A stretch of DNA of 33,300 nucleotides from Candidatus Woesearchaeota archaeon (GTDB lineage: Archaea > Nanobdellota > Nanobdellia > SCGC-AAA011-G17 > GW2011-AR18): the NCBI GenBank assembly GCA_964467335.1, contig CAYXPX010000004.1, positions 1-33,300 on the forward strand, read 5' to 3'. The translations under genes were made by a program, and so were the position numbers. This document shows positions 6,854-30,012 of the stretch, piece by piece (position 1 is the first letter of the stretch; every line of letters starts with the position of its first letter). The notes beneath the pieces were generated by a model, which was given only the letters and a program-made list of their open reading frames with translations, was not told the origin of the DNA and made no database searches.

Positions 6854-7897
6854 ATGTCTGAATTATCAAGAAGGGGTTTTCTTGGGGGCATTTTAGCAGG
6901 CATTGGCGCAGCACTTGCTCCGAGATTGGTTCTGGCTTTAGGTTCATTAGACCCAAAAAAAATAAAAGCAGAACAATATAAAAATCAATATTGCCTAAGA
7001 ATTGTTGCACGAAATGGAGAAAGTTACGCCTCTATTTCTAAGTTATATACAGGTTCAGAAAAATATACAGGAACGATAAGAAACTTTAACGATAATAAAC
7101 CCTTTAACTTAAAAGATTATTATTACATTCCTTACAATTATGTAAGAAAGTTAATAACAGATATATTATCAGAAAATAAATTCTCGGTATTTGAAATAGA
7201 TGAACAAGGAGAAGAACAAGGCATTGGAACCTTATTTGATATAGCTACAAATTTTCTAAACGATAAAGTTGGAATAGCTGAAAGAATAGATATTTTATTG
7301 GTTATTAATACAGACGTAAATCCGATAAACAAGATAGTTTATCCAGGACAGCAAATATTAGTTCCAGATTCTTTAGTAAAACAAGAGGCAGTTGAAGGGG
7401 CTTCTAAGCCAGAAACTCAACAGCCAGCAATAAGAGCTACACCCCAAAGAAGTGCAAGGCAAAATCCATTTAGAACAGATGTGAGTTATATTAGAAGAAG
7501 GATAAGACCAAGAGATAGATTTGGAGCGTCAAGAATCCGTGGTGGCAGAGGAAGATATTCTATTACTAAACATACTGGTTTGGATTTAGTTGCGCCAATA
7601 GGAACACCACTTTATCCTATAGAAACAGGTACTATAATTGCAGTGAGTAATGGTGGCGGCAGGTTTTGGAGAAACGGTAAATCTGTGAAATATAAGACAA
7701 ATTCTGGTTTAGAAATAATATATATCCATCTTTCTTCTTATAATGTAAAGGCCGGACAAAAAATAGATCTAAAAACCATGCTTGGAAGAGTTGGCATTAC
7801 AGGCAATGCTTCAGCAGATAATCCTCATGTTCATATACAAGTAAAAACAAGGGGTAAAGCAGTAAACCCAGAACCATATATAGTTGTAGACTCTTAA
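6854..7897 (+). CDS. Tat-signal secreted M23 (LytM-type) peptidoglycan endopeptidase with two degenerate LysM-like segments
   Basis: N-terminal twin-arginine motif 'SRRGFLGGILAGIGAALAP'. M23 zinc motifs 'HTGLDL' (HxxxD) and 'PHVHIQV' (HxH). Two segments read as LysM-like: 'YCLRIVARNGESYASISKLY...IRNFN' and 'LFDIATNF...IVYPGQQILVP'. Confidence 0.8.
   Translation: MSELSRRGFLGGILAGIGAALAPRLVLALGSLDPKKIKAEQYKNQYCLRIVARNGESYASISKLYTGSEKYTGTIRNFNDNKPFNLKDYYYIPYNYVRKLITDILSENKFSVFEIDEQGEEQGIGTLFDIATNFLNDKVGIAERIDILLVINTDVNPINKIVYPGQQILVPDSLVKQEAVEGASKPETQQPAIRATPQRSARQNPFRTDVSYIRRRIRPRDRFGASRIRGGRGRYSITKHTGLDLVAPIGTPLYPIETGTIIAVSNGGGRFWRNGKSVKYKTNSGLEIIYIHLSSYNVKAGQKIDLKTMLGRVGITGNASADNPHVHIQVKTRGKAVNPEPYIVVDS
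7560..7870 (+). other. M23 peptidase catalytic domain within CDS 6854..7897
   Basis: Region from 'KHTGLDLVAPIGTPLYPIETGTI' to 'GNASADNPHVHIQVK'. Confidence 0.75.
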
Positions 7898-11481: not shown

Positions 11482-12111
11482 ATGAAAACTTTAATTGCCC
11501 AGGGCGCAGAGGCAAAAATATTCAAAGAAAAGAATTTAATATCAAAAGAGAGAATTTCAAAATCTTATAGGATAGAAGAACTCGACAAAAAAATAAGAAA
11601 ATACAGGACAAGAAGAGAGACTTCAATTCTAGAAAAGACTTCAAAATTGATTCCGGTACCTAAAGTTTATAACTCTTCAGAAAAAGAGTTTAAAATTACT
11701 ATGGATTTTATAGATGGCAAAAAACTAGCAGATTGTTTAGACAAATTTGCTGATACAAAAAGAACTGAAATTTGCAAAACAATGGGAAAACAAGTTGCTT
11801 TGCTGCATAACAACAATATAATTCATGGGGACTTAACAACTTCAAACATGATATTAAAGGACAACGAAATTTACTTCATAGATTTTGGATTAAGCTTTAT
11901 AGACCAAAAAGCAGAGCACAAGGCGGTTGATTTGCATTTATTAAAACAAGCACTTGAAAGCAAGCACTACAAGCATTATGAATCAAGCTTTAAGGCACTT
12001 TTAGACGGCTATAAGAATACATCAAAAAACTACGAAGAAATCTTCGATAGATTAGATAAAGTTGAAGGCCGCGGCAGATATAAATCCAAAAATAAAGCCA
12101 AGTTCTTATAG
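11482..12111 (+). CDS. bud32: Kae1-associated kinase Bud32 (KEOPS subunit)
   Basis: Short RIO-like kinase: 'LIAQGAEAKIF', 'IHGDLTTSNMIL', 'IDFGLS', C-terminal 'VEGRGRY'. 209 aa. Confidence 0.85.
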   Translation: MKTLIAQGAEAKIFKEKNLISKERISKSYRIEELDKKIRKYRTRRETSILEKTSKLIPVPKVYNSSEKEFKITMDFIDGKKLADCLDKFADTKRTEICKTMGKQVALLHNNNIIHGDLTTSNMILKDNEIYFIDFGLSFIDQKAEHKAVDLHLLKQALESKHYKHYESSFKALLDGYKNTSKNYEEIFDRLDKVEGRGRYKSKNKAKFL

Positions 12112-12159: not shown

Positions 12160-12264
12160 AGCCCGTTCGTCTAGCGGCCAAGGATAATATATTAATATCC
12201 TAGGTGGCCTTTGGTATTTCTATGGAGAAAGCCATTGACGGAGGTTCGAATCCTCCACGGGCTA
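12160..12264 (+). tRNA. tRNA-Gln(UUG) with two predicted introns (17 nt near position 26-28; 15 nt at canonical 37/38)
   Basis: Hand-folded. Acceptor AGCCCGT/ACGGGCT (A1-U72, as in archaeal tRNA-Gln), U8. D-arm GTCT-AGCGGCCAA-GGAT. Anticodon stem (A/G)TGGC/GCCAT with loop CTTTGG|intron|A. T-arm GGAGG-TTCGAAT-CCTCC. Discriminator A. The length bookkeeping (105 nt = 73 + 17 + 15) is consistent. Confidence 0.7.
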
Positions 12265-15021: not shown

Positions 15022-15596
15022 TGGCAGCTGAAAAATTTACAGACATAAAGAAGAAAAAGAAGAAAAAGTGGCTGCCTATCCTGGCAAGCGTGGAGTTTAA
15101 CAACCAGTACATTACTGAGACATATGTTGATGAGCCTGAGAGCGCTGTAGGCAGAAGACTCAGCATAAATCTTATGACACTTACAAGGGATCCGAAAAAG
15201 CAGCTTTTTAATGCTGAATTCAAGATAAATGAAATAAAAAACAACAATGCAATAACTGAGCTGATAGGATACAGGATGCAGCCAGCGCATCTGAAAAGAA
15301 TTACAAAAAGCGGAAAAAACAAAGTTGATGACTCATTTATTTATACAACAAAGGACAATAAAAAAATTGCAATAAAACCGATTCTGCTTACAAAATCCCT
15401 TGTTTACAAAACAATACTGCAGGAGATCAGGAGAGCGACAAGAAGCTTTATTCTTGAATATGCAGGCAAGAACAGTTTTTCACAGATAATGAAAGACATA
15501 ATCAGCGGAAAGCTCCAGAAAGACCTGAGAGAAAATGCAAAAAAAATTTATCCTGTCACAAACATCATAATCAAAGATGCGCATATTCTTCATTAG
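15021..15596 (+). CDS. rps3ae: 30S ribosomal protein eS1 (S3Ae)
   Basis: 'KKKKKKKWLPILASVEFNNQYITETYVDEPESAVGRRLSINLMTLT' matches the S3Ae N-terminal block. 191 aa. Confidence 0.9.
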   Translation: MAAEKFTDIKKKKKKKWLPILASVEFNNQYITETYVDEPESAVGRRLSINLMTLTRDPKKQLFNAEFKINEIKNNNAITELIGYRMQPAHLKRITKSGKNKVDDSFIYTTKDNKKIAIKPILLTKSLVYKTILQEIRRATRSFILEYAGKNSFSQIMKDIISGKLQKDLRENAKKIYPVTNIIIKDAHILH

Positions 15597-15636
15597 AAAT
15601 GTTTTTAAAGTTCTTTTATAGCCTATTTTTTGCTAA

Positions 15637-15840
15637 GCCACCGTGGCTCAAATTATTTAAAACTTTTTAAATAAGGGCAGCGGTAGAGCAGCTGTTATTT
15701 AATAGCTGAAACTTGTATGCTGATCATCTGATGCTTAAACGCAAATGATCTCAAAGTGATCAGCAGGTTGGGGGTTCAAAGGAATCTTTCTTAGAAAGAA
15801 AGCTTCATCAAAGAAGGTTCTGAAAGTCCCTCCGGTGGCT
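15637..15840 (+). tRNA. tRNA-Thr(UGU)-like gene interrupted at up to four positions (D-loop, 30/31, 37/38, T-loop)
   Basis: Hand-folded. Perfect 7-bp acceptor GCCACCG/CGGTGGC, U8. D-arm GCTC-A[29 nt]GCGGTA-GAGC. Anticodon arm GCTG[16 nt]A-CTTGTA[41 nt]A-TCAGC. Variable loop AGGTT. T-arm GGGGG-TTCAA[46 nt]GT-CCCTC. Discriminator U (typical of archaeal Thr). 204 nt = 72 + 132. The exact splice sites are ambiguous by 1-2 nt. Confidence 0.55.
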
Positions 15841-15910
15841 TTTATTCTTATCTGCGTTAGCAAACCTTAGTTAGTAAACTTTTTATTCTCAATAGAAAAT
15901 CCCATTTTAT

Positions 15911-15997
15911 GGGCCCGTGGTCTAGCGGTTATGACATCACCTTGACGAAAAAATTTCAGAATGGTGAGGGTCGCAAGTTCAAATCTTGCCGGGCCCA
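15911..15997 (+). tRNA. tRNA-Val(GAC) with a 14-nt canonical (37/38) intron
   Basis: Acceptor GGGCCCG/CGGGCCC. D-arm GTCT-AGCGGTTA-TGAC. Anticodon stem TCACC/GGTGA with loop TTGACG|intron. Variable loop GGGTC. T-arm GCAAG-TTCAAAT-CTTGC. Discriminator A. Confidence 0.8.
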
Positions 15998-16002
15998 TTT
16001 AT

Positions 16003-16197
16003 TTATTCTTCCATAATCTTAAACTTTCTGCTTAATCCAAAATTAACCTTTAGAATTTTAAATTTTTTAAGTTTAAGGCCTTCAGCATATTTTTTTGCAG
16101 CCTCTTCAGAAGTGAAAGTTTTCAGCCTCTTCTTCCTGTTTCTTTCATTTCCAACAGGCATGTAGCGTCTTCTCCTGGTATGAACTCTCTTTGCCAT
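16003..16197 (-). CDS. small highly basic hypothetical protein (64 aa)
   Basis: ORF 16003..16212 trimmed to 'MAKRVHTRRRRYMPVGNERNRKKR...'. Arg/Lys-rich, possibly nucleic-acid binding. No family recognised. Confidence 0.4.
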   Translation of the reverse strand: MAKRVHTRRRRYMPVGNERNRKKRLKTFTSEEAAKKYAEGLKLKKFKILKVNFGLSRKFKIMEE

Positions 16198-16248
16198 GAC
16201 AGAATGCAACAAAAAAGTCTATAAAAGCTTTGCTAAGTTTCAGCGCTA

Positions 16249-16260
16249 CTTTTATATACA
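16249..16260 (+). promoter_or_regulatory. putative TATA box for the 16280-27383 operon
   Basis: 'cttttatataca' centred about 26 nt upstream of the ATG at 16280. Confidence 0.4.
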
Positions 16261-16279
16261 TAAAAAATAGCTTTTATTT

Positions 16280-18316
16280 ATGCAAAAAAGGGGTCAAGCA
16301 GCAGCTTTCATAATCCTAGGTGTAATAATCCTAATTGTTGTGATAGGTTTTATGGCTGTGAAAACCGGTTTCTTAAGGGACCTTTTTGAAAAAATATCTG
16401 TGGAGAGAAGGGCTGTGCCACAGCAGATAAAACCACTGCAGGATTTTACAGACAGGTGCGTTGAGCAGACAACAGGAGAGGGCGCTGCCATCATAGGCCA
16501 GCAGGGAGGCTATATTTTTATTCAGGGAGATGAAATTCCAACAACACAATTTTCTCCGCTTGGTAGAAGCCTTGAAATAGTGCCTGCATCAGATTTCAGG
16601 ACAGCTGTGTGGTACAGGGAGAGCGGAAATGGAATACAAGAGTCAAACATGCCGTCAAAGCAAAAGATGGAAGAAGAACTGGCAGATTATATTAACTTAA
16701 ATTTTGCAGAATGCCTAAGCAACCTTACCTCATTTTCAGAGCAGGGATATTTAATAGAAGCTGATGCAGTGCCTAAAACAACAGCAAGAATAAACGAAAG
16801 AAGCATAGAATCAAGCGTTGAATTTCCAATAAATATAAGAATTCTTGATACAGAATTTACGCTTTCAGAACATGGAGGAGAGATTGACTCAAACCTGGGA
16901 CACCTGTATAATATGGCAGGCGAAATAATGAAAAAAGAAAATGATGACAATTTCCTTGAAGAAAAGACCATTGATATGCTTGTAGCATATAATGAAGAGG
17001 TTCCTTTTACAGGAACAGACCTTTCATGCAGCGAGAGAGTGTGGATAAAATCAGATGTTGAATTAAAACTTAAAAATATTTTATTTGAAAACATTGCAGC
17101 CATGAAGATAAAGGGCACGAATTATGAATTAAATGATGAAAGCCTTAAGTATCTGGAATTTGATCCTCTTTCAACAAAAGATGACACTGTTACTGCAAAC
17201 CTGATGTATATTCCTGACTGGCCAACATTTGTAGAAATAAATCCTTCAGAGGGAAATATACTAAGAAGCGATCCAGTATCCAAAAGAACAGGCGGCCTTG
17301 CAGGACTTGTATCATCATTCTTCTGTCTTAACACCTACAGGTTTGTTTATGACCTTAAGTATCCTGTGATGATAACATTAACTGATGACAGCGGCTTTTC
17401 ATTTCAGTTTGCAATGCAGGTAATAATAGACAACAACCAGCCCAAAGAAAACAAGCTTGAATTTCTTGAAGTTCCTGAGGCTGAAAATCCAATATGTGAC
17501 TTTCCACAAAGGGAGGTTACAATATTTACAGCAACACTTGATAAAAACGAAGACATTGCTCCACTTGAGGGAGTAAGCCTGAGCTACAAATGTTTTCCTG
17601 CTTCATGCCCGCTTGGAGAATCAGAGCTTAATCCAAAGGGCGAACCTGAATTAAGAACGCTTGTGCCATTATGCTTCAATGGAGTTATAGAGGGATCAAA
17701 AGAGGGATACAAACAGGTTCAAAAAATATTTTATTCATCAAACGACCCTGATGCTCCTCCATTTATGCTTGTTGTGCTTGAGCCTGTTTACAAAAAAAAT
17801 GTTGCTGTAAAGGTCATAGAGGAAGAAACTGGCGCTGTCAGAGAACCTTATGAAACAGAACAGATAAGCTTCCAGTTTTTGAGCACAGAAACAAATTTTC
17901 AGTCAAGCTATATTTATCCTGATGAAGAAATAAAAACAATTGAATTAATTCCAGGAGATTATACCTTTAATTCATACATAATTAGAGAGGCAAGCACTTA
18001 TAAAATTACATTTCCCAAGCAGACAATAGAAACATGCATTGATACCAGAGACTTTGGACTGTTTGGGTTCTTTAACCAGAAGCAGGTATGCAGTTCAACA
18101 GAGACTGAGCCTGCTGAGTTTGATACTGTACTGACTGGCGGAGCCATAAATGTTGAGCATGAATTCACAAGGGAGGAACTTGCAAGAGATGCGCCGTTAA
18201 CATTATATGTACTTTCGTCTTCAATACCTTCAGGCCAGGAAGATTTTCAGAATATTATGATAAAACTTGAAACAAATGAGGATCATCCATTATTTAGATA
18301 TCCGGAGATAGCATGA
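16280..18316 (+). CDS. extracellular protein with a type IV pilin-like (class III) signal peptide, 678 aa
   Basis: N-terminus 'MQKRGQAAAFIILGVIILIVVIGFMAV' has a short basic leader, Gly, then an uninterrupted hydrophobic helix, as in archaeal prepilin-peptidase substrates. The rest is unassigned. ATGA overlap with the next gene. Confidence 0.8.
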   Translation: MQKRGQAAAFIILGVIILIVVIGFMAVKTGFLRDLFEKISVERRAVPQQIKPLQDFTDRCVEQTTGEGAAIIGQQGGYIFIQGDEIPTTQFSPLGRSLEIVPASDFRTAVWYRESGNGIQESNMPSKQKMEEELADYINLNFAECLSNLTSFSEQGYLIEADAVPKTTARINERSIESSVEFPINIRILDTEFTLSEHGGEIDSNLGHLYNMAGEIMKKENDDNFLEEKTIDMLVAYNEEVPFTGTDLSCSERVWIKSDVELKLKNILFENIAAMKIKGTNYELNDESLKYLEFDPLSTKDDTVTANLMYIPDWPTFVEINPSEGNILRSDPVSKRTGGLAGLVSSFFCLNTYRFVYDLKYPVMITLTDDSGFSFQFAMQVIIDNNQPKENKLEFLEVPEAENPICDFPQREVTIFTATLDKNEDIAPLEGVSLSYKCFPASCPLGESELNPKGEPELRTLVPLCFNGVIEGSKEGYKQVQKIFYSSNDPDAPPFMLVVLEPVYKKNVAVKVIEEETGAVREPYETEQISFQFLSTETNFQSSYIYPDEEIKTIELIPGDYTFNSYIIREASTYKITFPKQTIETCIDTRDFGLFGFFNQKQVCSSTETEPAEFDTVLTGGAINVEHEFTREELARDAPLTLYVLSSSIPSGQEDFQNIMIKLETNEDHPLFRYPEIA

Positions 18317-21300
18317 ATAAGGCAAAAAAATTAGGGGCAATGTTCTGTATATTTCTGCTATTGTCAACTACTTTAATTTATGGCCAGACACTTGTTCCAA
18401 GGCAAGAGACTACAGATTTTACAGGGCCTGCAAGCCAGAGGGCTGATCCTCTGTTCGGAGGAAACCTTGGGGGATTTGCATACAGTGATCCATACCAGCA
18501 GGATGTGAGAAGACTAACCGGAGCTTATTCTTCACCTTTTGATGTTGCATTGGGGGAGGCAATACTTGTGATTCCTTCAAGGCAGGATCCGCCGCAGGTA
18601 AGACAGTCTGCACTTGAACAGCAGGATCTTCCTGTTTATGTTTATCTTAAAGGAATTACTGCAGGTTCATTATTATCCTCGCTGACAGGAGATGTTGAAT
18701 CAAGAGATCCATTATCAGGCATAACAAACATTCCTCCAATTGATTACATTGATATACAGGTTAATGCATCAAGCGAGGACTATGAATTTGTCAGGTTTGC
18801 AAGGCATATCAACCCAAGACCAAACAGACTATCGCTTGACAATCTCGGCATGCTTGCTGTTTATTTAAGAAAGCTCCCAAACGAGGAAGAAACGCCTGCA
18901 GACAATACAATAACACTTGACTTTAATGCAAGAATTTTTCTTAAGCTTGAAGAGAGCAATTTGCTTGGAGTTTCCCAGCAGGACCTTGCGCTAAAACAGT
19001 TTGAAAATGAGGAAGAATTTTTCAGAAACAAGAATGAGCATTCATTTTATTCTGGCAAGGGTTATGCAAGGGCAACAAGGATATCCGGAGATACAACTAC
19101 ATTATTAATTTATAACAGAGACTTAAGGCCTGTATCAGCAGCTTCAGGATTTTTAACAACAGAGGCAACAAGACAGGGATTAAGACAGCCTGTGCCAATT
19201 ACATTAAGAAGAGGAGAGGTTTCACAACCCTTAACATTTGCTTATACAGGAAATCCGCTGACTGACATGTTCAGAGTAAGACTTGATGATGTTTCCACTC
19301 CATCAGACAAGGCTGAGCTTGAATTTTACTTAAACGGAAGGACTGTAAGAAGAAAAGCAGCTGTAGGCAGAGAGATTTTTTCAGGCTCAAACTGGATTTT
19401 AAAATCAATAACAAAAACAGACAGCGGAAGAAAAGCTGACAACACAAACATTGATGCAATAGCGGCTGAGTTTAGTTTAAATGAGCAGGCAAAAAACAGA
19501 TTAATTTCAAGGGTGAATCAGCTTGGGAGTTTATCCATTTACCAGCATACAATAACACTTGAGAATAAAATAACACGTGACAGAAAATCATTGTCTTCAG
19601 AGATAATATCTGACAGCGGGGGAAACCAGCTTAAGGTTGATGTAGTTCCGATAGGCAGGGACTATGCTGAATCTCTTGAGGATGAATACTGCACTGAGGA
19701 AAACCCTGAAATTGCCAATGGAGATTTTGCATGCGATGCAATAAAATCATTCAAACAGATCATAAAATCATTTCCAGCATCTGCTGAAGCAGAAAAAGCA
19801 AAGAGAGATCTGGCTGAAATTTATGACCTGGAACTTATTGACTTCAAGTCATGCAGAAAAAAAGCTGACGGAAGGCCTGTTGATAAGAAAAAATGCGATG
19901 AGTTTAGAATGGACATGACTGACTTAGCACATTATTATTACACGCAAATTGGAGAGAAAGATACATTTGAAGCCAGATTTGGCGGCAAGGTTGGAAAGAT
20001 GCTTCTTGAGGATGAGGGAGCAACATTAAGCCTCTTAAGAACAATTAAACAGGAGGAGGAGCAGTCAACAATAAGCATAAAAATCTACAAGGATCCTTTA
20101 AGGCATGACGAAGTTCATAACATAAAGCAGCTTGATGAAATAATATTTCCTGACACAGAAATAAATTACAAGGGCAGTACAGATTATGTATGGAAAATAT
20201 CCTTAATAACAGGAGACTCAGCAACATTAAGACTTTTCAGGAAGAGCGGAGATTCTTATTCTGCAACACAGGAGGCGCCTGTCACATTAAAACTTGATGA
20301 GATAAAATCTGTCACAACATTATTCCCTGAAAGAGATGCGCTTGGAAATCCTGCAAGGCCGGAGGAAACAAGAAATGTTGTTCTGACAAAGGTGAATACT
20401 GTTGAGGAGGCATACATTACAATACTTCCAGGACCTGGGAGAGCATTTACAACTTCCACATTCAAAGTGCATATTCCTGTTGATCCAAGGCCATTTAAGT
20501 TAACACCACAACAAATGGAGTCACATATAAAAACGACAGAGGAAATAATTGAAAAATTAAATTCTGTAATTGAAAAGCTTGACAGGGTAATATCAACAAT
20601 GAAAAAATTATGCCTTGGCGTGTGGGCATTTTTAACATTAAAGAATTCAGTTTCAGGAACAAGAGCAATTGCAAGGCAGCACGTTTCTGAGAGCTATAAA
20701 TCAAGATGCCAGCAGGAGAGCCTTGAAAATCCTGACAAATTTCCCACAATGACAAGATGCCTTAACTTTTATTCTGATGAGATAACAAAAGACATAGACA
20801 GAACAGAGAAGCATATCAAAGACATTAACCTAAACATAAAGGGAAAGGCTATTGAGGATATAAATATGCTTGAATCTGATGATGAGAAAAAAATATGCGG
20901 AGGATTTACAGAATTTTCAGAGGCAGGCGCAGCGCTTGGAGCAAAAAATCAGGGAATAATAAAAGACTATAGGGACTGCCTGCTTTATGCAAAAATACAA
21001 AACGACAATGCAATAGGCGAGAACTATAAAAATTTCATTGCAGGAAGACTTGATGAATTAAAAACAAAACAGAGAGTTGAACTTTATAACAAGGCTAAGG
21101 CATTTGCTGATGCTGATTCTTCAGATTTATGGGACAGCAATAATGCAACGCATATAAGAAGGATAATTTCGCAGCTTGACAGCCAGAGGGAAACAGGGGA
21201 TGCAAAAATTGTTGATGTGGAATTCAAGAGACAGGAGCCTGGACTTTGGTTTGGAGATGCGCTTGTCCAAGACAGCTCTTCACCACAGGGAATAAAAACC

Positions 21301-24300
21301 ATCACATTAAGAGGACTGAACGAGTATGATGCAATAATACAGGACAATGAATTCAAAGACGATATACAGGCAAAAGAGCATATATGCAATGAAGTTTTGA
21401 GCAATGCAAAATGGGAAAATTCCAGATGTTCAGATGAAAATGTCCAAACAAGAAACAGAGATGACGAATTAGACAGAAAGATTCTGGATCTTAAGAAAAA
21501 GCCTGCAATGAACGGTCCATATCACAGGTTTATTACCAATGATTACTATGAAACTGCACATGGATTTCGTGCAGAATTAACAGAAAATGAATGCAAAAGA
21601 GTTAATGGAAAGTGGAAAGGAATTTTAGGCTCTGGCCTTCTAGCAGAATGTGAACCACAGGAGTATTCAACATCATATATTCTTGATTCAGCTGGAAGGC
21701 AGATAAACCAATTTTACTCAGAAGACCCTCTTCCAGCATATTACAGGGATGACGGCTTAACATATTGCTATCCAACAGGAAACGGGGATTATGCTTTGGT
21801 TGTAGAAAGATTCCAGGGGCAGAATAAACTAATAAACAAAATTACTGTATTTAATGTCGGCCCTAACGGCAGGATTGAGTGCGGCGCAGGAGATGATGAG
21901 ATTGTTCATCTTTCAGACAAACTGGATGTACTCCCTGAACTGAAGAGAAGCTATATTTCAAAAGAGCCGCAGGCAAGATGCACTCCAAAAGAGGATGGAA
22001 AATCTGTTGGCAGAAAAATTAACGGAAAAGATGTTGTATGCAAAACCGGACTTGCAGGCGACAGATATAATGAATTGTTAAAACCACAGTGCATTGATGT
22101 TATGGATCCTGCAGACTGCAAGATAATGTTTAACTTCTGCGATCCTGTGATGTGCCCAAGCTCAAGATGCACGCTTGGCGGCAGAGTGCCTGAGAGAGAT
22201 GTTATACAGTCTGGAATTATCGGATCAACTTTGTTATGCCTTCCAAATGTTAAGGAGGGAATTGCAGTACCTGTTTGTTTAACTGGAATAAGTGCGGGGT
22301 TGAAATCAATAAGAAGCGTTCTTGAGGGTTACAAAAGCTGCCTTGAAATAAAATTAAACAACAATGAAAACGTAGGTTTCTGCGATTACATAAGGTCTGT
22401 CGGAATATGCGAAGTTGTGTGGAAAGAGACTTATAATCTGTTAAATATTGGAGGGAGAGGACTGCTTGACTGGGTTTCAGGAAATGTATTCGGAGAGGCA
22501 AAGGGCGGAGGAGAATATTTAACGTTCCAGAGCAGCCTTGATAATGTAGGGAAAAGCGCCAGAGTATTTACTGAAGAATACAAAACAACTTATACAGCGC
22601 AATTTTTATCGCAGTCGACAGAAGATATAGGAACACAGATATGCAGGCTGAGTGTGAATGGAAAACTTCCAAATGTCGGCAAGATACTTGACCAGCTTAC
22701 AGAACCTGAAAATCCTCCGCAGTTTACAGCATTTTTTGATGAAAGACCCTATGCTGCGCCTGGAGAGGCACTGCCTTCGCCTACTATACCTGCAGGAACA
22801 CAGGAGGTTTCAATGTACAGGGTGCTTTACCACATTTATGCAGGCACTGGATTTTTCCAGGGAGCATACTCCCAGCCTGTAAGCTTATTTAATCCAAACA
22901 CACCATTAGGAGATCCGCAGGCAATTACTTATTCAGTGTTCCTGAGAAATCAGCAGCTAGGACTTCCAATTATGTATGTAACATTTTCAGGAGAATTAAG
23001 CCAGCAGATTGGTAGGATAGATCCTGGAAAGTTCCAGCAGCAGACTGTGCAAAAACCAGGGCCAAAGGGTTACAATGAAATATGTGTCGTGATAAACGGA
23101 GTTGAGCACTGCGGATTTGGGAAGGTTGGCACATCATTTGGATTTGATGAGCTGCAGGATGCATTAACTGCAGGAGAGGCAGCAGAGGAGATTAACTCTG
23201 CTGAGAAATGTGTTCCAAGCTCAAGAACATCAAGAGAATATTCAATTGCAAAGCTAGGAGCTGTTGCAGGTACTGCGCTTACAGTAGGAGGAACTGCAGC
23301 AGGAATTGCAACTTCTGGAATAGAAAAAGATCTCACGAGCACAGGAGTTGTAAGGGTATGCAGTGCAGAGTCTCCTACACCTGAAACAGGAAGATGGAGA
23401 AATGTTGGATCATGCGGAGAGGATGAGAGAGGGAAGAACCTTGGGGCATGCTGGCTTGACATGGAATCTGCAACAATCAAAGACAGAAAAATAAATGAAG
23501 ATTTGTACAGGGAGATATCTGAAAGAGCTGGAGAGAGATTTGAGTCAATAGATAAAAACACAGCAAGCGAGATATTTTTTGCATTGAACAAAAGAAGGGA
23601 TGCAATACTGCAGCAGCTTAGAAGCGAGATAAGAGACGCGCTTAGTGGGAGGGCACCAACATCTGAACCAAAGAAAATTGTCATAAGGCCGCCAGCACCT
23701 GTGACACTAGGCTTAAGAGCAGAGAATGTTTATGATGTATACCTAACAGACAAAGATATTGAGAGAGAGCTAAGCCCTTATATTTACAGAGAAGTGCAGG
23801 AACATGAAGGCATAGACTATTTTTTCATAAAATCAATAATAAAGAAAGAAAGCGACTGGAGAGAGGATCTTGTTGGGGCATGCGGAGAGGCAGGAATTAT
23901 ACAACTGCAACCATCTACTGCAGAAGATGCAATTAAACATGGTGCACCAATAACAAAAATACTCAATCCAATACCAGGAACAAGCATAAGTTTTAGGGGA
24001 GGATGTGACAGAGAATACGGCCAGGCACTTGAAAATTTTATCAGTGGAAAAAGTCATGAAGAGCTTGTTCAGCTTGACGAGAGATTTGATAATGAGAAGG
24101 CAATTAAGACAGCAATGATTTATTTTGAGAAATTTATTGTAAATGCCTACAAAAAAAATGAAATTCCATTAACTGTTGAAAACATTGCAGCAGGATATAA
24201 TGCAGGAGCTGGAGCTGTTATAAGCGGCAATATTCCTGAAAGAACAAAAGATAAATATATGCCGAATGTAAGAAGAGATTACGACAGCTTGTTTAACAAG

Positions 24301-25041
24301 GCGCAGCAGAGAATTGCTTCTGCAGGGGCAGCAGGAACAACCGCAGCAGCAGGAGTCGAAAAGGACGCTGAATGTGCAAGAGCATTTGGAACTGAGGACT
24401 ATGTTGCGATAGTACAGGACAATACAATTGCATGCGATGCAAATGACAGAGATTTGTGCTGCACAAGAAAAGAATTAGTGCCTCATATTGAGAGAATAAG
24501 AGAAACTGCTGCTAATGCAAAAAAAGTCATAGTAATAGTTGATCCTACAAGAACACCTGCTGACCAGAGACTTGCCTTCCTGGATTATCTTGCAGGAGGC
24601 GTACTTGCATGCGGACCAAACAGCATGAGCGGGCCAGAAAAAGAGGGAATTGCACGCAGAATTCCAAATACTGGAAATACAAAAGAGGAAAGAATACAAA
24701 CAACCTTAAGCAATTTAGATTCAGCAACAAAAGCAAAGATTAATGATGGATCAGAATATTTAAGATGTCCTCATGTTATGGGAAGGGCACTTGATATAAA
24801 GTTTGCAGGCATGCCAAGCATATACAAAGAATTAAAGGATATGACAGATTCAGAACTAATGGCTGTAAAACAGTTCCGTGAATTTATGTGCGACATTGGA
24901 TGGGCAAATTTAGGAAAAGAGTGGTGGCATTATGAAATAACATCTAGTTCATACAGAACAGCAAAAAATTCAAACAGCTGCCATTGGGGAACTTTGGTAG
25001 GACCTGAACCAGACGCAACTCCGGATTATAAATATGCATAA
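18313..25041 (+). CDS. giant secreted protein (2,242 aa) with a C-terminal SLT lytic transglycosylase module and an M15/LAS-type peptidoglycan peptidase module
   Basis: Uninterrupted 6.7 kb ORF. Sec signal 'MNKAKKLGAMFCIFLLLSTTLIYGQ'. SLT block 'IIKKESDWREDLVGACGEAGIIQLQPSTAE...AAGYNAGAGAV'. M15 block 'RTPADQRL...CPHVMGRALDIKF...GKEWWHYEI'. About 1,800 N-terminal residues are unassigned, including a Cys-rich segment. Confidence 0.85.
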   Translation: MNKAKKLGAMFCIFLLLSTTLIYGQTLVPRQETTDFTGPASQRADPLFGGNLGGFAYSDPYQQDVRRLTGAYSSPFDVALGEAILVIPSRQDPPQVRQSALEQQDLPVYVYLKGITAGSLLSSLTGDVESRDPLSGITNIPPIDYIDIQVNASSEDYEFVRFARHINPRPNRLSLDNLGMLAVYLRKLPNEEETPADNTITLDFNARIFLKLEESNLLGVSQQDLALKQFENEEEFFRNKNEHSFYSGKGYARATRISGDTTTLLIYNRDLRPVSAASGFLTTEATRQGLRQPVPITLRRGEVSQPLTFAYTGNPLTDMFRVRLDDVSTPSDKAELEFYLNGRTVRRKAAVGREIFSGSNWILKSITKTDSGRKADNTNIDAIAAEFSLNEQAKNRLISRVNQLGSLSIYQHTITLENKITRDRKSLSSEIISDSGGNQLKVDVVPIGRDYAESLEDEYCTEENPEIANGDFACDAIKSFKQIIKSFPASAEAEKAKRDLAEIYDLELIDFKSCRKKADGRPVDKKKCDEFRMDMTDLAHYYYTQIGEKDTFEARFGGKVGKMLLEDEGATLSLLRTIKQEEEQSTISIKIYKDPLRHDEVHNIKQLDEIIFPDTEINYKGSTDYVWKISLITGDSATLRLFRKSGDSYSATQEAPVTLKLDEIKSVTTLFPERDALGNPARPEETRNVVLTKVNTVEEAYITILPGPGRAFTTSTFKVHIPVDPRPFKLTPQQMESHIKTTEEIIEKLNSVIEKLDRVISTMKKLCLGVWAFLTLKNSVSGTRAIARQHVSESYKSRCQQESLENPDKFPTMTRCLNFYSDEITKDIDRTEKHIKDINLNIKGKAIEDINMLESDDEKKICGGFTEFSEAGAALGAKNQGIIKDYRDCLLYAKIQNDNAIGENYKNFIAGRLDELKTKQRVELYNKAKAFADADSSDLWDSNNATHIRRIISQLDSQRETGDAKIVDVEFKRQEPGLWFGDALVQDSSSPQGIKTITLRGLNEYDAIIQDNEFKDDIQAKEHICNEVLSNAKWENSRCSDENVQTRNRDDELDRKILDLKKKPAMNGPYHRFITNDYYETAHGFRAELTENECKRVNGKWKGILGSGLLAECEPQEYSTSYILDSAGRQINQFYSEDPLPAYYRDDGLTYCYPTGNGDYALVVERFQGQNKLINKITVFNVGPNGRIECGAGDDEIVHLSDKLDVLPELKRSYISKEPQARCTPKEDGKSVGRKINGKDVVCKTGLAGDRYNELLKPQCIDVMDPADCKIMFNFCDPVMCPSSRCTLGGRVPERDVIQSGIIGSTLLCLPNVKEGIAVPVCLTGISAGLKSIRSVLEGYKSCLEIKLNNNENVGFCDYIRSVGICEVVWKETYNLLNIGGRGLLDWVSGNVFGEAKGGGEYLTFQSSLDNVGKSARVFTEEYKTTYTAQFLSQSTEDIGTQICRLSVNGKLPNVGKILDQLTEPENPPQFTAFFDERPYAAPGEALPSPTIPAGTQEVSMYRVLYHIYAGTGFFQGAYSQPVSLFNPNTPLGDPQAITYSVFLRNQQLGLPIMYVTFSGELSQQIGRIDPGKFQQQTVQKPGPKGYNEICVVINGVEHCGFGKVGTSFGFDELQDALTAGEAAEEINSAEKCVPSSRTSREYSIAKLGAVAGTALTVGGTAAGIATSGIEKDLTSTGVVRVCSAESPTPETGRWRNVGSCGEDERGKNLGACWLDMESATIKDRKINEDLYREISERAGERFESIDKNTASEIFFALNKRRDAILQQLRSEIRDALSGRAPTSEPKKIVIRPPAPVTLGLRAENVYDVYLTDKDIERELSPYIYREVQEHEGIDYFFIKSIIKKESDWREDLVGACGEAGIIQLQPSTAEDAIKHGAPITKILNPIPGTSISFRGGCDREYGQALENFISGKSHEELVQLDERFDNEKAIKTAMIYFEKFIVNAYKKNEIPLTVENIAAGYNAGAGAVISGNIPERTKDKYMPNVRRDYDSLFNKAQQRIASAGAAGTTAAAGVEKDAECARAFGTEDYVAIVQDNTIACDANDRDLCCTRKELVPHIERIRETAANAKKVIVIVDPTRTPADQRLAFLDYLAGGVLACGPNSMSGPEKEGIARRIPNTGNTKEERIQTTLSNLDSATKAKINDGSEYLRCPHVMGRALDIKFAGMPSIYKELKDMTDSELMAVKQFREFMCDIGWANLGKEWWHYEITSSSYRTAKNSNSCHWGTLVGPEPDATPDYKYA
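23770..24300 (+). other. SLT (lytic transglycosylase, goose-lysozyme-like) domain of the giant protein
   Basis: Catalytic 'ES' in 'KSIIKKESDW', then 'GEAGIIQLQPSTAEDA' and 'IAAGYNAGAGAVISG' in the canonical order and spacing. Confidence 0.75.
24450..24960 (+). other. peptidase M15 / VanY-like (LAS zinc hydrolase) domain of the giant protein
   Basis: 'HVMGRALD' (H-x6-D zinc motif preceded by a small residue) and 'EWWHYE' (third ligand / E-x-W-H motif) about 45 aa apart. Confidence 0.65.
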
Positions 25042-26641
25042 AAAAATATTATTAACAATGTTTGTACTGCTTTCCCTAGCTGCAGCAGTTTATTCTCCTG
25101 AAGATTCATGCGAGGGAAAGGCAGTATGCCTACAAAAAGATTTACCTGAGAGCCAGCAGAAGATTGAAGAGCTTTATAATCTAAACATTGGCGGCACAGG
25201 ATACAGGGACATAGTTGACAGATCTGCAGATATTTCCATAGGCTTGCAGGCATTGTACGAGGCAGGCAGAACTGCAAAGGAGCTCGCACTTTTAAGGGCG
25301 CAGTATGAGGGAATAGGAAAAGCTGAATTAATTATAGAACAAAGAATAACAACGTCTACAACCACAGAAGACGCTCCTGATTTTACAGAGGAGGATATTC
25401 CAGAGATAGATTTTTCTGAGGTGCTGAAAAGAGAAAAGAAAGAATTAGCTGAATCACAGATTGAATCTGCAAACATAAGATTAAATGACGGGAGCCTGTT
25501 TTCAAGAGATTATTTTGTGAGATTTAAAAATGGAAAGTGGGAGTGGTGCAAGAATCCTGTTTTTGGAAGCTGCGATGACAAGAAATTTAATTCTATACAT
25601 TTTCCAAAAAAGGAAGAGGCAGGAGAATTTTATGAAATTTTATACTCATTAGAAACTGCTAACATTGAGGGTGGATCTTTTTCTCGTGAAGGCGTGCCTC
25701 TACCAGAAACAGCAATTTATGAAAGGGGGCTTGTAGATATTTTAAGAAAACTTGTATTTTTAAGGCTAGGAATTTCAGAAATGATTTTTGAAATTGGCAA
25801 CAGCAGAGTCTATGTCGAGGCTGACACAACAAGAGTTGTTGAGAGATTTGATATAATAATCAGCAACAGAAAAGCATTTGTATCAGGGGCAGATGATGTA
25901 AGGAAATTTATAACCACGACAGAGCCTTTCAGGCCGCAGTTTGAAAATATATTTCAGGAATTCAAAAATCTTGTAGATAGGAAATCTGCACAGTCTTCGC
26001 CATTTGAGGCACAGCCTGGAGGAATACCTGAGGAAGAATTGGAGATGGAAGAAAGATTTATAGAGGAAGGGGAGGAAGATAGAAAAAGCAATAATATTCT
26101 TGATGGATTTAATTTAGAAGGAGCACAGGTAATTAAGTATAGATTTAATGAGGGGCCTAATAAAACGAGAAAATTATCAGATGTTGACAGAGTGGTACTC
26201 CACCATACAGAGGGCTCAGCTCCAGGACAGAGGACGGTTGACTATTTAATTGACAGAAGAGGACTTTCTATACATTATGTGGTGGATAAGGATGGAAATA
26301 TAATCTATGCAATGTCAGAAGATATGGTTGCATTTCATGCCGGATGCAAAAGAGATAAGGAAATTTTTTGTGTTGAAGGTATGAATGAAAGGTCAATAGG
26401 AATTGAGATCACAAACAGTGGAAGGTCCGATGATTTGTTTACTGATGCTCAATATAACACTTTACGACAGCTTCTCCCCTATATAACCAACAATTTAGGA
26501 ATACCTTTTGATAATGAGCATATTATAGCACACTATGAGATAACAAGCAATAAGGATGACCCACAATACTTCCTCTGGGATAAAATAGGACTTTCTAGTC
26601 ATATTTCATACAATGAATTCAAAAGAGAGCATTATGCTTAA
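25034..26641 (+). CDS. secreted N-acetylmuramoyl-L-alanine amidase (Amidase_2/PGRP fold) with a novel roughly 380-aa N-terminal region
   Basis: Signal 'MHKKILLTMFVLLSLAAAVYS'. C-terminal 'VVLHHTEGS...LSIHYVVDKDGNIIYAMSEDMVAFHAG...NERSIGIEITNSG...FTDAQYNTLRQLL...IIAHYEITSNKDDP' is the Amidase_2 pattern. 8-nt overlap (ATGCATAA) with the giant gene. Confidence 0.8.
   Translation: MHKKILLTMFVLLSLAAAVYSPEDSCEGKAVCLQKDLPESQQKIEELYNLNIGGTGYRDIVDRSADISIGLQALYEAGRTAKELALLRAQYEGIGKAELIIEQRITTSTTTEDAPDFTEEDIPEIDFSEVLKREKKELAESQIESANIRLNDGSLFSRDYFVRFKNGKWEWCKNPVFGSCDDKKFNSIHFPKKEEAGEFYEILYSLETANIEGGSFSREGVPLPETAIYERGLVDILRKLVFLRLGISEMIFEIGNSRVYVEADTTRVVERFDIIISNRKAFVSGADDVRKFITTTEPFRPQFENIFQEFKNLVDRKSAQSSPFEAQPGGIPEEELEMEERFIEEGEEDRKSNNILDGFNLEGAQVIKYRFNEGPNKTRKLSDVDRVVLHHTEGSAPGQRTVDYLIDRRGLSIHYVVDKDGNIIYAMSEDMVAFHAGCKRDKEIFCVEGMNERSIGIEITNSGRSDDLFTDAQYNTLRQLLPYITNNLGIPFDNEHIIAHYEITSNKDDPQYFLWDKIGLSSHISYNEFKREHYA
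26180..26610 (+). other. Amidase_2 catalytic domain within CDS 25034..26641
   Basis: See the motif string in the parent CDS. Confidence 0.75.
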
Positions 26642-29855: not shown

Positions 29856-30012
29856 TGCGGGGGACAGGATTCGAACCTGCGTAGACCTAAGCCACCAGGT
29901 ATCTTAAAATCACAGCATTATTGCTCATAATACCTTTTCCTAAGCTAAACCTTCTAGTTCATTATAAAATGAAACTAGAATCTGGCCCGTTTGGCCTCTC
30001 CGGCACCCCCGC
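29856..30012 (-). tRNA. tRNA-Leu(UAG) (class II, long variable arm) with two predicted introns (36 nt at 30/31; 38 nt at 37/38)
   Basis: Reverse complement reads GCGGGGG-TG-CCG-GAGAGGCCAAA-CGG-G-CCAG[36 nt]G-CTTAGG[38 nt]A-CCTGG-TGGCTTAGGTCTAC-GCAGG-TTCGAAT-CCTGT-CCCCCGC-A. This restores a perfect CCAGG/CCTGG stem and a CUUAGGA loop. 157 nt = 83 + 74. Confidence 0.7.

What the first reader, a model, noticed from the sequence alone, without database searches (positions are those of the whole stretch)
15637..15840. tRNA-Thr(UGU)-like gene apparently split by four introns
Seen directly:
- A perfect 7-bp acceptor pairing (GCCACCG ... CGGTGGC) lies 190 nt apart.
- Canonical fragments appear in the right order: U8, GCTC...GCGGTAGAGC, CTTGTA, TCAGC-AGGTT, GGGGGTTCAA...GTCCCTC.

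A standard 72-nt cloverleaf with anticodon arm GCTGA-CTTGTAA-TCAGC and discriminator U is recovered only if four segments are removed:
- about 29 nt in the D-loop (15651-15679, itself an AT hairpin TTATTTAAAA/TTTTAAATAA);
- 16 nt at 30/31 (15695-15710);
- 41 nt at 37/38 (15718-15758, containing an 8-bp GCTGATCA/TGATCAGC helix);
- about 46 nt in the T-loop (about 15780-15825).

Multi-intron archaeal tRNAs are known, and to my knowledge the reported cases have up to three introns. Four introns in one gene, with about 65% of the gene intronic, would be extreme. The splice sites were inferred by hand from cloverleaf restoration, not from scored bulge-helix-bulge (BHB) motifs.
Basis: partly seen in the sequence, partly recalled or inferred. 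Interest (0 to 1): 0.72.

Follow-up and report, generated by a model that had tools for sequence, protein, structure and literature searches.

The report
Four-intron tRNA-Thr gene in a Woesearchaeote
This is a real threonine tRNA gene from a tiny DPANN archaeon that is cut into five pieces by four short introns, one more than the published maximum of three, and close relatives carry the same gene with zero to four introns.

Summary
Window 15637-15840 (+) is a tRNA-Thr(UGU) gene with five exons (72 nt) and four introns (132 nt, 65% of the gene).

Corrected introns:
- 15652-15680 (position 15/16)
- 15695-15710 (30/31)
- 15718-15758 (37/38)
- 15781-15826 (59/60)

The spliced product is a canonical cloverleaf. 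All four junctions fall in the exact bulge-helix-bulge (BHB) register. Introns 2 and 4 fit strictly, intron 1 fits a relaxed HBh' form, and intron 3 has a G·A mismatch in its central helix.

The decisive evidence is comparative. The gene lies after the S3Ae ribosomal protein gene in related Woesearchaeota contigs (syntenic in all but two). Those copies carry 0, 1, 2, 3 or 4 introns, and for each intron some orthologue is uninterrupted exactly at the predicted junction. Exons are identical or change by compensatory pairs, while introns diverge about 12%.

Intron 4 is homologous to a T-loop intron in neighbouring tRNA-Val genes, which points to intron spread between genes.

All four tRNA genes in the window are interrupted (9 introns in total).

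The mechanism is the known one. The intron count exceeds the published maximum, and I found no prior report. Splicing itself is inferred; no RNA data or endonuclease gene was available.

The parts
15602..15609 (+). TTTTTAAA, a TATA-box-like element 28-35 nt upstream of the mature 5' end (probable archaeal promoter; inferred)
   Evidence: The block AAATGTTTTTAAA directly after the S3Ae stop codon is conserved in L001, L004, L006 and L008, and nearly so in L012, while the rest of the 40-nt spacer diverges (27-35 of 40 positions identical). Promoter function is inferred from position and archaeal TATA consensus only.
15637..15651 (+). Exon 1: tRNA positions 1-15 (acceptor 5' strand GCCACCG, U8, G9, D-stem GCUC, A14, A15)
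   Evidence: Identical in all GCCACCG-type orthologues.
15652..15680 (+). Intron 1: 29 nt at position 15/16 in the D loop, 21% GC. Relaxed HBh' motif with H = GCUC/GGGC, a 3-nt bulge AA|A, a 9-bp A/U hairpin as h', and no outer helix
   Evidence: BHB register. H, bulge and h' all appear in the MFE fold. Three compensatory pairs in h'. Absent in L012 and L050, where the D arm reads GCTCAA[CT]GG uninterrupted.
15681..15694 (+). Exon 2: positions 16-30 (rest of D loop, D-stem 3' strand, A26, anticodon stem G27-G30)
15695..15710 (+). Intron 2: 16 nt at position 30/31 in the anticodon stem, 19% GC. Strict hBHBh' with H = CAGC/GCUG, bulges UG|U and AA|A, h = 3 bp, h' = 3 bp
   Evidence: Absent in L004-L007, L013 and L012, where AGCTGACTTGTA is uninterrupted. 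A different 30-nt intron sits at the same site in L050.
15711..15717 (+). Exon 3: 7 nt, positions 31-37 (A31, C32, U33, anticodon UGU, A37)
15718..15758 (+). Intron 3: 41 nt at the canonical 37/38 position. H = CUUG/AAAG (3 pairs plus G·A), bulges UA|U and UG|A. The outer helix is the anticodon stem, which is contiguous only after intron 2 is removed. The inner helix is GAUCAU/AUGAUC
   Evidence: h rises from 1 to 5 bp once intron 2 is removed. L012 has G·U in place of G·A. The intron is absent in L047-L049, where GCTGACTTGTAATCAGC is uninterrupted. Its 5' segment UGCUGAUCAU is invariant and can form a competing 10-bp helix with 15756-65.
15759..15780 (+). Exon 4: positions 38-59 (A38, anticodon-stem 3' strand, variable loop AGGUU, T-stem GGGGG, UUCAAA)
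15781..15826 (+). Intron 4: 46 nt at position 59/60 in the T loop. Strict hBHBh' with H = UUCA/UGAA, bulges AA|G and AG|U, h = the 5-bp T stem, h' = 8 bp
   Evidence: Absent in L001-2, L015-16, L010, L014, L012 and L050, where TTCAAATCC is uninterrupted. Homologous to the T-loop intron of tRNA-Val in L006 and L008 (alignment A2).
15827..15840 (+). Exon 5: positions 60-73 (U60, T-stem CCCUC, acceptor 3' strand CGGUGGC, discriminator U73). No CCA is encoded
15841..15849 (+). T-rich trailer TTTATTCTT (probable oligo-T termination signal; inferred)
   Evidence: The intron-4-bearing orthologues, L012 and L050 also have T-rich trailers.

Best explanation
Window 15637-15840 (+) is a functional tRNA-Thr(UGU) gene of a Woesearchaeota (DPANN) archaeon. 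It lies 40 nt downstream of the ribosomal protein S3Ae gene.

It is transcribed as a roughly 204-nt precursor holding five exons (15, 14, 7, 22 and 14 nt) and four introns (29, 16, 41 and 46 nt) at positions 15/16, 30/31, 37/38 and 59/60.

Each intron is removed by the archaeal splicing endonuclease (EndA). EndA cuts after the second nucleotide of each 3-nt bulge of a bulge-helix-bulge motif, and the exons are then ligated. This step is inferred.

Introns 1 and 4 can be presented independently in the primary transcript. Introns 2 and 3 compete for the same nucleotides: positions 32-34 serve intron 2's outer helix and intron 3's central helix, and positions 27-28 serve intron 2's central helix and intron 3's outer helix. 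Intron 2 is therefore predicted to leave first. That makes the anticodon stem contiguous and lets intron 3's motif form.

The relaxed motifs of introns 1 and 3 imply a broad-specificity endonuclease.

The introns were gained stepwise in this lineage. At least one (intron 4) belongs to an intron family shared with tRNA-Val. Some have since been lost precisely.

Shown here: sequence, geometry, conservation and the presence/absence series. Inferred: transcription, cleavage, ligation and splicing order.
For: 1. Spliced product. The 72-nt product is called tRNA-Thr(tgt) by ARAGORN. It has U8, A14, G18G19, A15-U48, U33, A37, UUCAAAU, G53-C61 and U73, and is 58% GC against 19-39% for the introns.

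2. BHB register. H5 = -6..-3 before the 5' splice site pairs with -6..-3 before the 3' splice site. This is 4/4 for introns 1, 2 and 4 and 3/4 for intron 3. Flanking helices are listed. The register is confirmed by PMC4090602: the first two anticodon nucleotides lie in the 4-bp helix. The background rate of a strict BHB is about 6e-5 per site.

3. Orthologue series. These are contigs carrying S3Ae proteins 44-92% identical to the window's, plus one contig found by DNA pattern (L014). The gene follows S3Ae directly except in L010/L011.
- L047-49: no introns
- L012: only 37/38
- L050: 30/31 and 37/38
- L001, L010, L014: introns 1, 2, 3
- L004, L006, L007: introns 1, 3, 4
- L008 and the window: all four
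Every intron is absent somewhere, exactly at the predicted junction.

4. Selection. Exons are 72/72 identical in L001, L004, L006 and L008, while introns differ at 13-16 of 114-132 sites in L004, L006 and L008 (Fisher p about 0.001). Cloverleaf pairs are 100% kept, with 3 compensatory T-stem pairs in L010/L014. BHB helices are 95% paired against 35-50% when slid, with 4 compensatory pairs.

5. Independent detection. The one-intron orthologue in L012 scores 59.7 bits with the Rfam tRNA model.

6. Context.
- The window is archaeal (TFIIB, Gins51, S3Ae, S15, Bud32).
- SRP54 is 80% identical to Woesearchaeota MAGs.
- The other three tRNA genes in the window carry 1, 2 and 2 BHB introns, all with 4/4 H.

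7. Intron 4 shares an about 80% identical core with the 59/60 intron of tRNA-Val in L006 and L008.
Against: - There is no RNA evidence. Transcription, cleavage and ligation are all inferred.
- Intron 3's central helix has a G·A mismatch in all orthologues except L012. Its inner helix does not start at the bulge, so the 5' site sits in a larger internal loop.
- A competing 10-bp helix (15718-27 with 15756-65) makes a non-BHB fold 4.9 kcal/mol more stable than the BHB fold in the intermediate that retains only intron 3.
- Intron 1 has no outer helix.
- Intron 2's 5' bulge can be absorbed into a continuous 8-bp hairpin in the MFE fold. The MFE also leaves intron 4's AU-rich central helix open.
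- No endonuclease or ligase gene lies in the window, so enzyme specificity is unknown.
- Only 33 kb of the genome is visible, so a second, uninterrupted tRNA-Thr(UGU) copy cannot be excluded.
- ARAGORN and Rfam do not detect the gene unaided.
Confidence: 0.93

Rival explanations
1. Decaying pseudogene: a former tRNA-Thr gene disrupted by four insertions and no longer functional, with the working copy elsewhere in the genome.
For: Standard tRNA finders do not call the gene. 65% of the locus is non-tRNA sequence. Only 33 kb of the genome is visible, so another copy cannot be excluded.
Against: Exons are 72/72 identical across lineages whose S3Ae proteins are only 69-92% identical, while introns and flanks diverge. 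The only exon changes in the more distant L010 and L014 are three compensatory T-stem pairs. The insertions sit precisely in BHB register and their helices are kept by compensatory changes. The upstream TATA-like box and T-rich trailer are conserved.
Confidence: 0.03
2. Fewer than four spliced introns: one insertion (for example the D-loop hairpin or the T-loop insert) is kept in the mature RNA as an expansion, or the anticodon region is a single complex intron processed differently.
For: Intron 1 lacks an outer helix. Intron 3's BHB is imperfect and is out-competed thermodynamically by another fold.
Against: Orthologues with identical exons lack each insertion individually, and they lack it exactly at the BHB-predicted junction. 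Each insertion is therefore a separate, dispensable unit. L004 lacks intron 2 but keeps intron 3, and L012 has intron 3 alone, so these are two separate introns. A 29-nt or 46-nt insert in the D or T loop would destroy the D/T loop tertiary interaction (established tRNA structure).
Confidence: 0.03
3. Chance resemblance: an intergenic region with a 7-bp inverted repeat from which a cloverleaf can be carved by free choice of four deletions.
For: A lenient acceptor + T-arm scan gives about 50 false positives in the window. Loose BHB criteria give dozens of hits in the region.
Against: The same exons recur in every related contig examined that reaches the locus, and one orthologue (L012) scores 59.7 bits on the Rfam tRNA model. 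The strict BHB rate is about 6e-5 per site.
Confidence: 0.005

Closest known systems
Multi-intron tRNA genes of Thermoproteales (e.g. Pyrobaculum calidifontis, 71 introns in 46 tRNA genes)
   Same: [quoted passage not shown] Relaxed hBH/HBh' motifs occur. Closely spaced introns need ordered removal (PMC8450103). Similar intron sequences appear in different tRNA genes, interpreted as intron transposition (PMC4033280; PMC4090602).
   Different: The published maximum is three introns per gene (PMC4033280, PMC8450103); this gene has four. The host is a low-GC (about 35%) DPANN Woesearchaeote, not a crenarchaeote. The introns are A/U-rich hairpins. The endonuclease type of this lineage is unknown here; PMC5829648 reports α4-type EndAs with an L3 loop in multiple DPANN lineages.
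Nuclear tRNA-Ile(UAU) of the red alga Cyanidioschyzon merolae (three introns: D stem, 37/38, T loop)
   Same: Introns sit in the D arm, at 37/38 and in the T loop of one gene, with hBHBh' motifs. Sequential processing was shown experimentally, with the peripheral introns removed before the 37/38 intron (PMC3728597). That parallels the order predicted here.
   Different: It is eukaryotic and has three introns, not four. There is no anticodon-stem intron, and splicing was verified by RT-PCR.
Disrupted tRNA genes of DPANN archaea (ARMAN-2 / Micrarchaeum with ε2 EndA; N. equitans with (αβ)2 EndA; other DPANN lineages with L3-loop α4 EndA)
   Same: Same superphylum. Non-canonical and multiple introns are linked to broad-specificity endonucleases. 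Kaneta et al. 2018 predicted that undetected disrupted tRNA genes exist in DPANN genomes (PMC5829648).
   Different: I found no four-intron gene and no orthologous 0-to-4 intron series described. The genes here are colinear, neither split nor permuted.

Membership tests
Archaeal BHB (EndA-spliced) tRNA intron / multi-intron tRNA gene | Removing the introns restores a canonical cloverleaf with the universally conserved nucleotides | tested here: met
   ARAGORN calls the 72-nt product tRNA-Thr(tgt). The one-intron orthologue scores 59.7 bits on Rfam RF00005.
Archaeal BHB (EndA-spliced) tRNA intron / multi-intron tRNA gene | Each splice-site pair lies in two 3-nt bulges separated by a 4-bp helix (strict hBHBh'), or in the accepted relaxed forms hBH / HBh' / BHL | tested here: met
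   Introns 2 and 4 are strict (H 4/4; h 3 and 5; h' 3 and 8). Intron 1 is HBh' (H 4/4, h' 9, h 0). Intron 3 is relaxed (H 3/4 with G·A; h 5 after intron 2 is removed). The register was checked against PMC4090602.
Archaeal BHB (EndA-spliced) tRNA intron / multi-intron tRNA gene | The insertions are dispensable units: orthologues without them are uninterrupted at the same junction | tested here: met
   Intron 1 is absent in L012 and L050. Intron 2 is absent in L004-7, L013 and L012. Intron 3 is absent in L047-49. Intron 4 is absent in L001, L010, L014, L012 and L050.
Archaeal BHB (EndA-spliced) tRNA intron / multi-intron tRNA gene | The host is an archaeon encoding a splicing endonuclease (broad-specificity type if relaxed motifs are present) and an RNA ligase | not testable with these tools
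   The archaeal host is shown.
Archaeal BHB (EndA-spliced) tRNA intron / multi-intron tRNA gene | The introns are excised at the RNA level (mature tRNA and circular or linear introns detectable) | not testable with these tools
   No transcriptome data are available.
tRNA-Thr(UGU) isoacceptor | Anticodon UGU with U33 and A37, plus the acceptor features G1-C72, C2-G71 and U73 (typical of archaeal tRNA-Thr, from my own knowledge) | tested here: met
   The loop is CUUGUAA, the acceptor is GCC.../...GGC and the discriminator is U. The intron-less syntenic orthologue in L047 has the same anticodon arm. Aminoacylation identity was not tested.
Transposed / shared tRNA intron families (as described for Thermoproteales) | Clearly similar intron sequences at BHB sites of different tRNA genes | tested here: met
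   tRNA-Thr intron 4 and the 59/60 intron of tRNA-Val (L006, L008) share the core CCTTTCTTnnAAAGAAAGCTTCnnCAAAGAAGG. Mean column identity is 81%. This was not shown for introns 1-3.
Split or permuted tRNA genes | tRNA halves encoded at separate loci or in 3'-5' permuted order | tested here: not met
   All five exons are colinear within 204 nt.
Group I / group II introns, or box C/D sRNA-bearing tRNA introns | Ribozyme core, or C/D box guide RNA, within the intron | tested here: not met
   The introns are 16-46 nt. Rfam gives no hit at gathering threshold and only sub-threshold chance hits in 15560-16020.

The most novel reading that the evidence does not exclude
This, together with its orthologue in L008/L009, is the first documented tRNA gene with four introns. 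The published ceiling for Archaea and for the alga C. merolae is three.

It sits in a Woesearchaeota clade where one mostly syntenic gene shows every state from 0 to 4 introns. That clade also shows recent precise losses (intron 4 in L001, intron 2 in the L004 clade) and an intron family shared between tRNA-Thr and tRNA-Val. Together these would make a natural system for dating and dissecting BHB-intron gain, transposition and loss.

In addition, the invariant 5' segment of the 37/38 intron forms a 10-bp helix that masks the 3' splice site and the anticodon-stem 3' strand. This may be a selected device that enforces splicing order or delays maturation, rather than a by-product.
Probability: 0.55. 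Interest if true: 0.62.

Novelty: new member of a known kind. Interest (0 to 1): 0.55.

Why it matters
**The documented limit rises from three to four.** Two-thirds of a tRNA gene can be intron and the gene can still be under strict purifying selection.

**Standard annotation misses such genes.**
- ARAGORN found none of the four tRNA genes in this window.
- Rfam found two of the four.
- Apparent gaps in DPANN tRNA sets, as noted in PMC5829648, may therefore be detection failures and not true absences.

**The 0-1-2-3-4 series gives unusually clean material.** It comes from an orthologous gene with identical exons, and each intron also occurs as a presence/absence difference among relatives. It can be used to study:
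- how BHB introns are gained (here with evidence that one intron family is shared between two genes);
- how they are lost precisely;
- how closely packed introns are removed in order.

**It constrains the enzyme.** The endonuclease of this lineage must accept HBh' and mismatched motifs.

Tried and rejected
**Direct detection failed**
- ARAGORN on the window found nothing.
- Rfam at gathering threshold and at E<=10 gave no tRNA hit at 15637-15840.

- They give D loop AGCGGUA and T loop UUCAAGU. These disagree with the BHB register and with the intron-less orthologues.

**Alternative anticodon-arm architectures: rejected**
- I tried using the second or third GCUGA copy (15705-09, 15719-23) as the stem strand.
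- These give a 9-nt loop or no plausible anticodon loop, and they have no BHB. L004 and L012 settle the issue.

**Searches with limited return**
- The genome-contig scan with exon1-gap-exon2 gave 0 hits, so this clade is not among the GTDB representatives searched.
- The metagenome scan added only L014-16.
- P0012's contig had no DNA available.

**Loss of intron 4 in L001 by an integrating element carrying an intron-less tRNA 3' end: not supported**
- No direct repeat of the tRNA-Thr 3' end was found in L001.
- The 3' trailers of the intron-4-less genes L001, L010 and L014 do differ, and L010 has an integrase gene next to the tRNA. The question is left open.

**Box C/D guide RNA in intron 3: rejected**
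- UGAUG and CUGA motifs are present, but the order is wrong, the intron is too short and Rfam gives no support.

**Thermodynamics as a test of BHB formation: only partly informative**
- RNAfold leaves the AU-rich 4-bp helices open and prefers other pairings in the anticodon region.

**EndA in the window**
- None found.

**Literature tools**
- Several paper search and paper-reading runs timed out.
- One guessed PMC id was the wrong paper, and PMC1852824 is not held.
Full report
**1. The observation**

GCCACCG (15637-43) and CGGTGGC (15833-39) form a perfect 7-bp acceptor pairing. The D-arm, anticodon-loop, variable-loop and T-arm fragments lie between them in cloverleaf order.

ARAGORN finds no tRNA anywhere in the window. 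Rfam finds only two, at 12160-12264 and 15911-15997, and nothing at this locus even at E<=10.

**2. Splice-site geometry**

I used the canonical archaeal bulge-helix-bulge (BHB) register:
- The 4 nt at -6..-3 before the 5' splice site pair with the 4 nt at -6..-3 before the 3' splice site.
- Each site follows the second nucleotide of a 3-nt bulge.

This register matches PMC4090602, which places the first two anticodon nucleotides inside the 4-bp helix. It also reproduces the neighbouring tRNA-Val 37/38 intron.

Results per intron:

| Intron | Coordinates | Position | Central helix H | Outer h | Inner h' |
|---|---|---|---|---|---|
| 1 | 15652-15680 | 15/16 | GCUC/GGGC, 4/4 | none | 9-bp A/U hairpin |
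| 2 | 15695-15710 | 30/31 | CAGC/GCUG, 4/4 | 3 bp | 3 bp |
| 3 | 15718-15758 | 37/38 | CUUG/AAAG, 3 pairs + G·A | anticodon stem | GAUCAU/AUGAUC, set back from the bulge |
| 4 | 15781-15826 | 59/60 | UUCA/UGAA, 4/4 | T stem, 5 bp | 8 bp |

- Introns 2 and 4 are strict hBHBh' motifs. Intron 1 is a relaxed HBh' motif.
- Intron 3's outer helix is 1 bp in the primary transcript and 5 bp once intron 2 is gone.
- The corrected product has D loop AACGGUA (A15-U48 Levitt pair) and T loop UUCAAAU, and is again tRNA-Thr(tgt).
- Exons are 58% GC. Introns are 19-39% GC.

Strict BHBs occur at 223 of about 3.66 million (start, end) pairs on the + strand. Finding them at junctions already fixed by the cloverleaf is therefore far beyond chance.

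**3. Comparative evidence (decisive)**

The S3Ae gene ends 40 nt upstream of the tRNA. Its homologues, 44-92% identical, led to 22 related contigs. A metagenome pattern scan added 3 more loci, one of them a contig already held.

The same tRNA follows S3Ae on nearly all of those contigs that extend far enough. In L010 and L011 another gene abuts S3Ae, and in L010 the tRNA lies about 1.8 kb downstream. The gene carries different intron sets:

| Locus | Introns present | Note |
|---|---|---|
| L047-49 | none | GCTGACTTGTAATCAGC uninterrupted |
| L012 | 3 | GCTCAACGGTAGAGC and TTCGATTCC uninterrupted |
| L050 | 2, 3 | a different 30-nt intron 2 at the same site |
| L001/2/15/16, L010, L014 | 1, 2, 3 | TTCAAATCC uninterrupted |
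| L004, L006, L007 | 1, 3, 4 | AGCTGACTTGTA uninterrupted; partial L005 and L013 agree as far as they reach |
| L008 and the window | 1, 2, 3, 4 | partial L009 also agrees as far as it reaches |

Each of the four introns is therefore absent in some orthologue, exactly at the junction the BHB register predicts.

- Exons are 72/72 identical in L001, L004, L006 and L008. Introns differ at 13-16 of 114-132 aligned sites in L004, L006 and L008 (Fisher p about 0.001).
- The only exon changes in L010 and L014 are three compensatory T-stem pairs (GGGGG/CCCUC to CCCGG/CCGGG).
- On alignment A1, the BHB helices are 95% paired against 35-50% when slid, with four compensatory pairs.
- The single-intron orthologue in L012 scores 59.7 bits on the Rfam tRNA model.

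These facts exclude chance and a decaying pseudogene. They also show that the four insertions are separate, individually dispensable units.

**4. Evolutionary pattern**

An S3Ae neighbour-joining tree gives (((window, L001)100, (L004, (L006, L013))100)98, L008)100.
- L008 and the window both have all four introns. L001 has therefore lost intron 4, and the L004 clade has lost intron 2, both precisely.
- Deeper nodes are poorly supported. The intron-less outgroup (L047) and the intermediate states are consistent with stepwise accumulation, with the 37/38 intron oldest.

Intron 4 is homologous to the 59/60 intron of tRNA-Val in L006 and L008. The shared core is CCTTTCTTnnAAAGAAAGCTTCnnCAAAGAAGG, with 81% mean column identity. 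This is the signature interpreted in Thermoproteales as intron transposition (PMC4033280; PMC4090602).

**5. How it most likely works**

Inferred steps: transcription starts from the conserved TTTTTAAA box (15602-09) and terminates in the T-rich trailer. EndA then cleaves at the eight bulge positions, the exons are ligated and CCA is added.

The MFE fold of the 204-nt transcript (-66.1 kcal/mol, z = -4.5) contains:
- the acceptor stem and T stem;
- the complete intron-1 H + bulge + h';
- intron 4's h'.

It leaves intron 4's AU-rich central helix open, and it folds the anticodon region differently from the BHB model.

Introns 2 and 3 use overlapping nucleotides:
- Positions 32-34 serve intron 2's outer helix and intron 3's central helix.
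- Positions 27-28 serve intron 2's central helix and intron 3's outer helix.

Removal of intron 2 before intron 3 is therefore predicted. Such ordered removal is known for closely spaced archaeal introns (PMC8450103) and was shown experimentally in C. merolae (PMC3728597).

The relaxed motifs imply a broad-specificity endonuclease. [quoted passage not shown] No EndA gene lies in the window.

**6. An unexplained detail**

Intron 3 is the most conserved intron. Its first 10 nt (UGCUGAUCAU, 15718-27) are invariant in every intron-3-bearing orthologue examined. They can pair perfectly with GUGAUCAGCA (15756-65), a stretch that covers the 3' splice site and the anticodon-stem 3' strand.

In the intermediate that keeps only intron 3, this alternative fold is 4.9 kcal/mol more stable than the BHB fold. 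In L012 the difference is 3.3 kcal/mol. It may be a by-product of helix design, or a selected timing or ordering device. There is no covariation to decide between these.

**7. Context**

The window is archaeal: TrmB, Gins51, TruD, FtsY, SRP54, Bud32, S15, S3Ae, S8e and TFIIB. Its SRP54 is 80% identical to Candidatus Woesearchaeota MAGs (taxonomy).

All four tRNA genes in the window are interrupted, with nine introns in total:

| tRNA | Introns |
|---|---|
| Gln(UUG) | 2 |
| Thr(UGU) | 4 |
| Val(GAC) | 1 |
| Leu(UAG), minus strand, found only by my own scan | 2 |

Orthologues of tRNA-Gln carry 0-3 introns. Those of tRNA-Val carry one intron in the window and L001 and additional D-loop or T-loop introns in L004, L006 and L008.

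**8. Comparison with what is known, and novelty**

- Mechanistically this is the known class of archaeal BHB multi-intron tRNA genes.
- The published maximum is three introns per gene: 'a maximum of three introns' (PMC4033280, 2014) and 'can contain up to three' (PMC8450103, 2021).
- C. merolae also tops out at three (PMC3728597).
- Full-text searches for four-intron tRNAs, or for tRNA introns in Woesearchaeota or DPANN, returned nothing relevant. Subscription literature was not searchable.

I file this as a new, record-setting member of a known kind, in a lineage where such hidden genes were anticipated.

**9. Verdict**

Confidence that this is a functional four-intron tRNA-Thr(UGU) gene is 0.93. 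Interest is moderate (0.55). The mechanism is ordinary for Archaea, but three things are noteworthy: the intron count, the natural 0-4 series, and the failure of standard tools.

Noticed in passing
window 29856-30012, minus strand (introns 29946-29981 and 29901-29938): A hidden class II tRNA-Leu(UAG) gene that both ARAGORN and Rfam miss. It has two BHB introns, at 30/31 (36 nt, long A/U hairpin) and 37/38 (38 nt), both with a 4/4 central helix. The spliced 83-nt product is called tRNA-Leu(tag) by ARAGORN.
   Followed up: yes
window 12160-12264 (+); introns 12187-12203 and 12215-12229. Orthologues: L014 339-411, L006 1194-1279, L004 about 1174-1302: tRNA-Gln(UUG) has two introns here, at 26/27 and 37/38. 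Its orthologues next to the Bud32 gene carry 0 (L014), 1 (L006) or 3 (L004, with an extra 53/54 intron, H = CGGC/GCCG). The same intron turnover is therefore seen in a second gene.
   Followed up: partly
window 15911-15997 (+), intron 15948-15961. Orthologues: L006 4716-4851, L008 1885-2021, L004 6296-6406: tRNA-Val(GAC) has one 37/38 intron here. In L006 and L008 it also has a T-loop 59/60 intron homologous to tRNA-Thr intron 4. In L004 it instead has a D-loop intron.
   Followed up: partly
window 15718-15727 and 15756-15765: The invariant 5' end of the 37/38 intron (UGCUGAUCAU) can form a perfect 10-bp helix across the 3' splice site and the anticodon-stem 3' strand. That fold beats the BHB fold by 3.3-4.9 kcal/mol. 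Its function is unknown.
   Followed up: partly
L001 5116-5169 and 5788-5825: The 3' part of tRNA-Val, including part of its intron, is repeated about 660 nt downstream. The two copies flank a small islet that contains a PIN-domain gene. This looks like the att duplication of an element integrated into the tRNA gene.
   Followed up: no
Downstream of tRNA-Thr in L001, L004, L006, L008 and L010, compared with window 15841-16279: The region between tRNA-Thr and the conserved 678-aa protein gene is hypervariable among relatives. It holds different small ORFs, including PIN, MazE and SelR. In L010 a phage-type integrase gene lies next to the tRNA. The genes that lack intron 4 (L001, L010, L014) have non-T-rich 3' trailers.
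   Followed up: partly
window 6854-7897, 18313-25041, 25034-26641, 28136-28600: Several murein-hydrolase-type genes occur in an archaeal window: two M23 peptidases, a 2242-aa protein with an SLT lytic transglycosylase domain, and an Amidase_2 protein. This is consistent with a DPANN lifestyle that targets bacterial cell walls.
   Followed up: no
window 11482-12111 and 4008-5003: Genes for Bud32 (by sequence resemblance; Pfam hits RIO1/Pkinase), which takes part in t6A37 synthesis, and for pseudouridine synthase TruD lie near the tRNA cluster. tRNA-Thr(UGU) has the A37 that would receive t6A.
   Followed up: no
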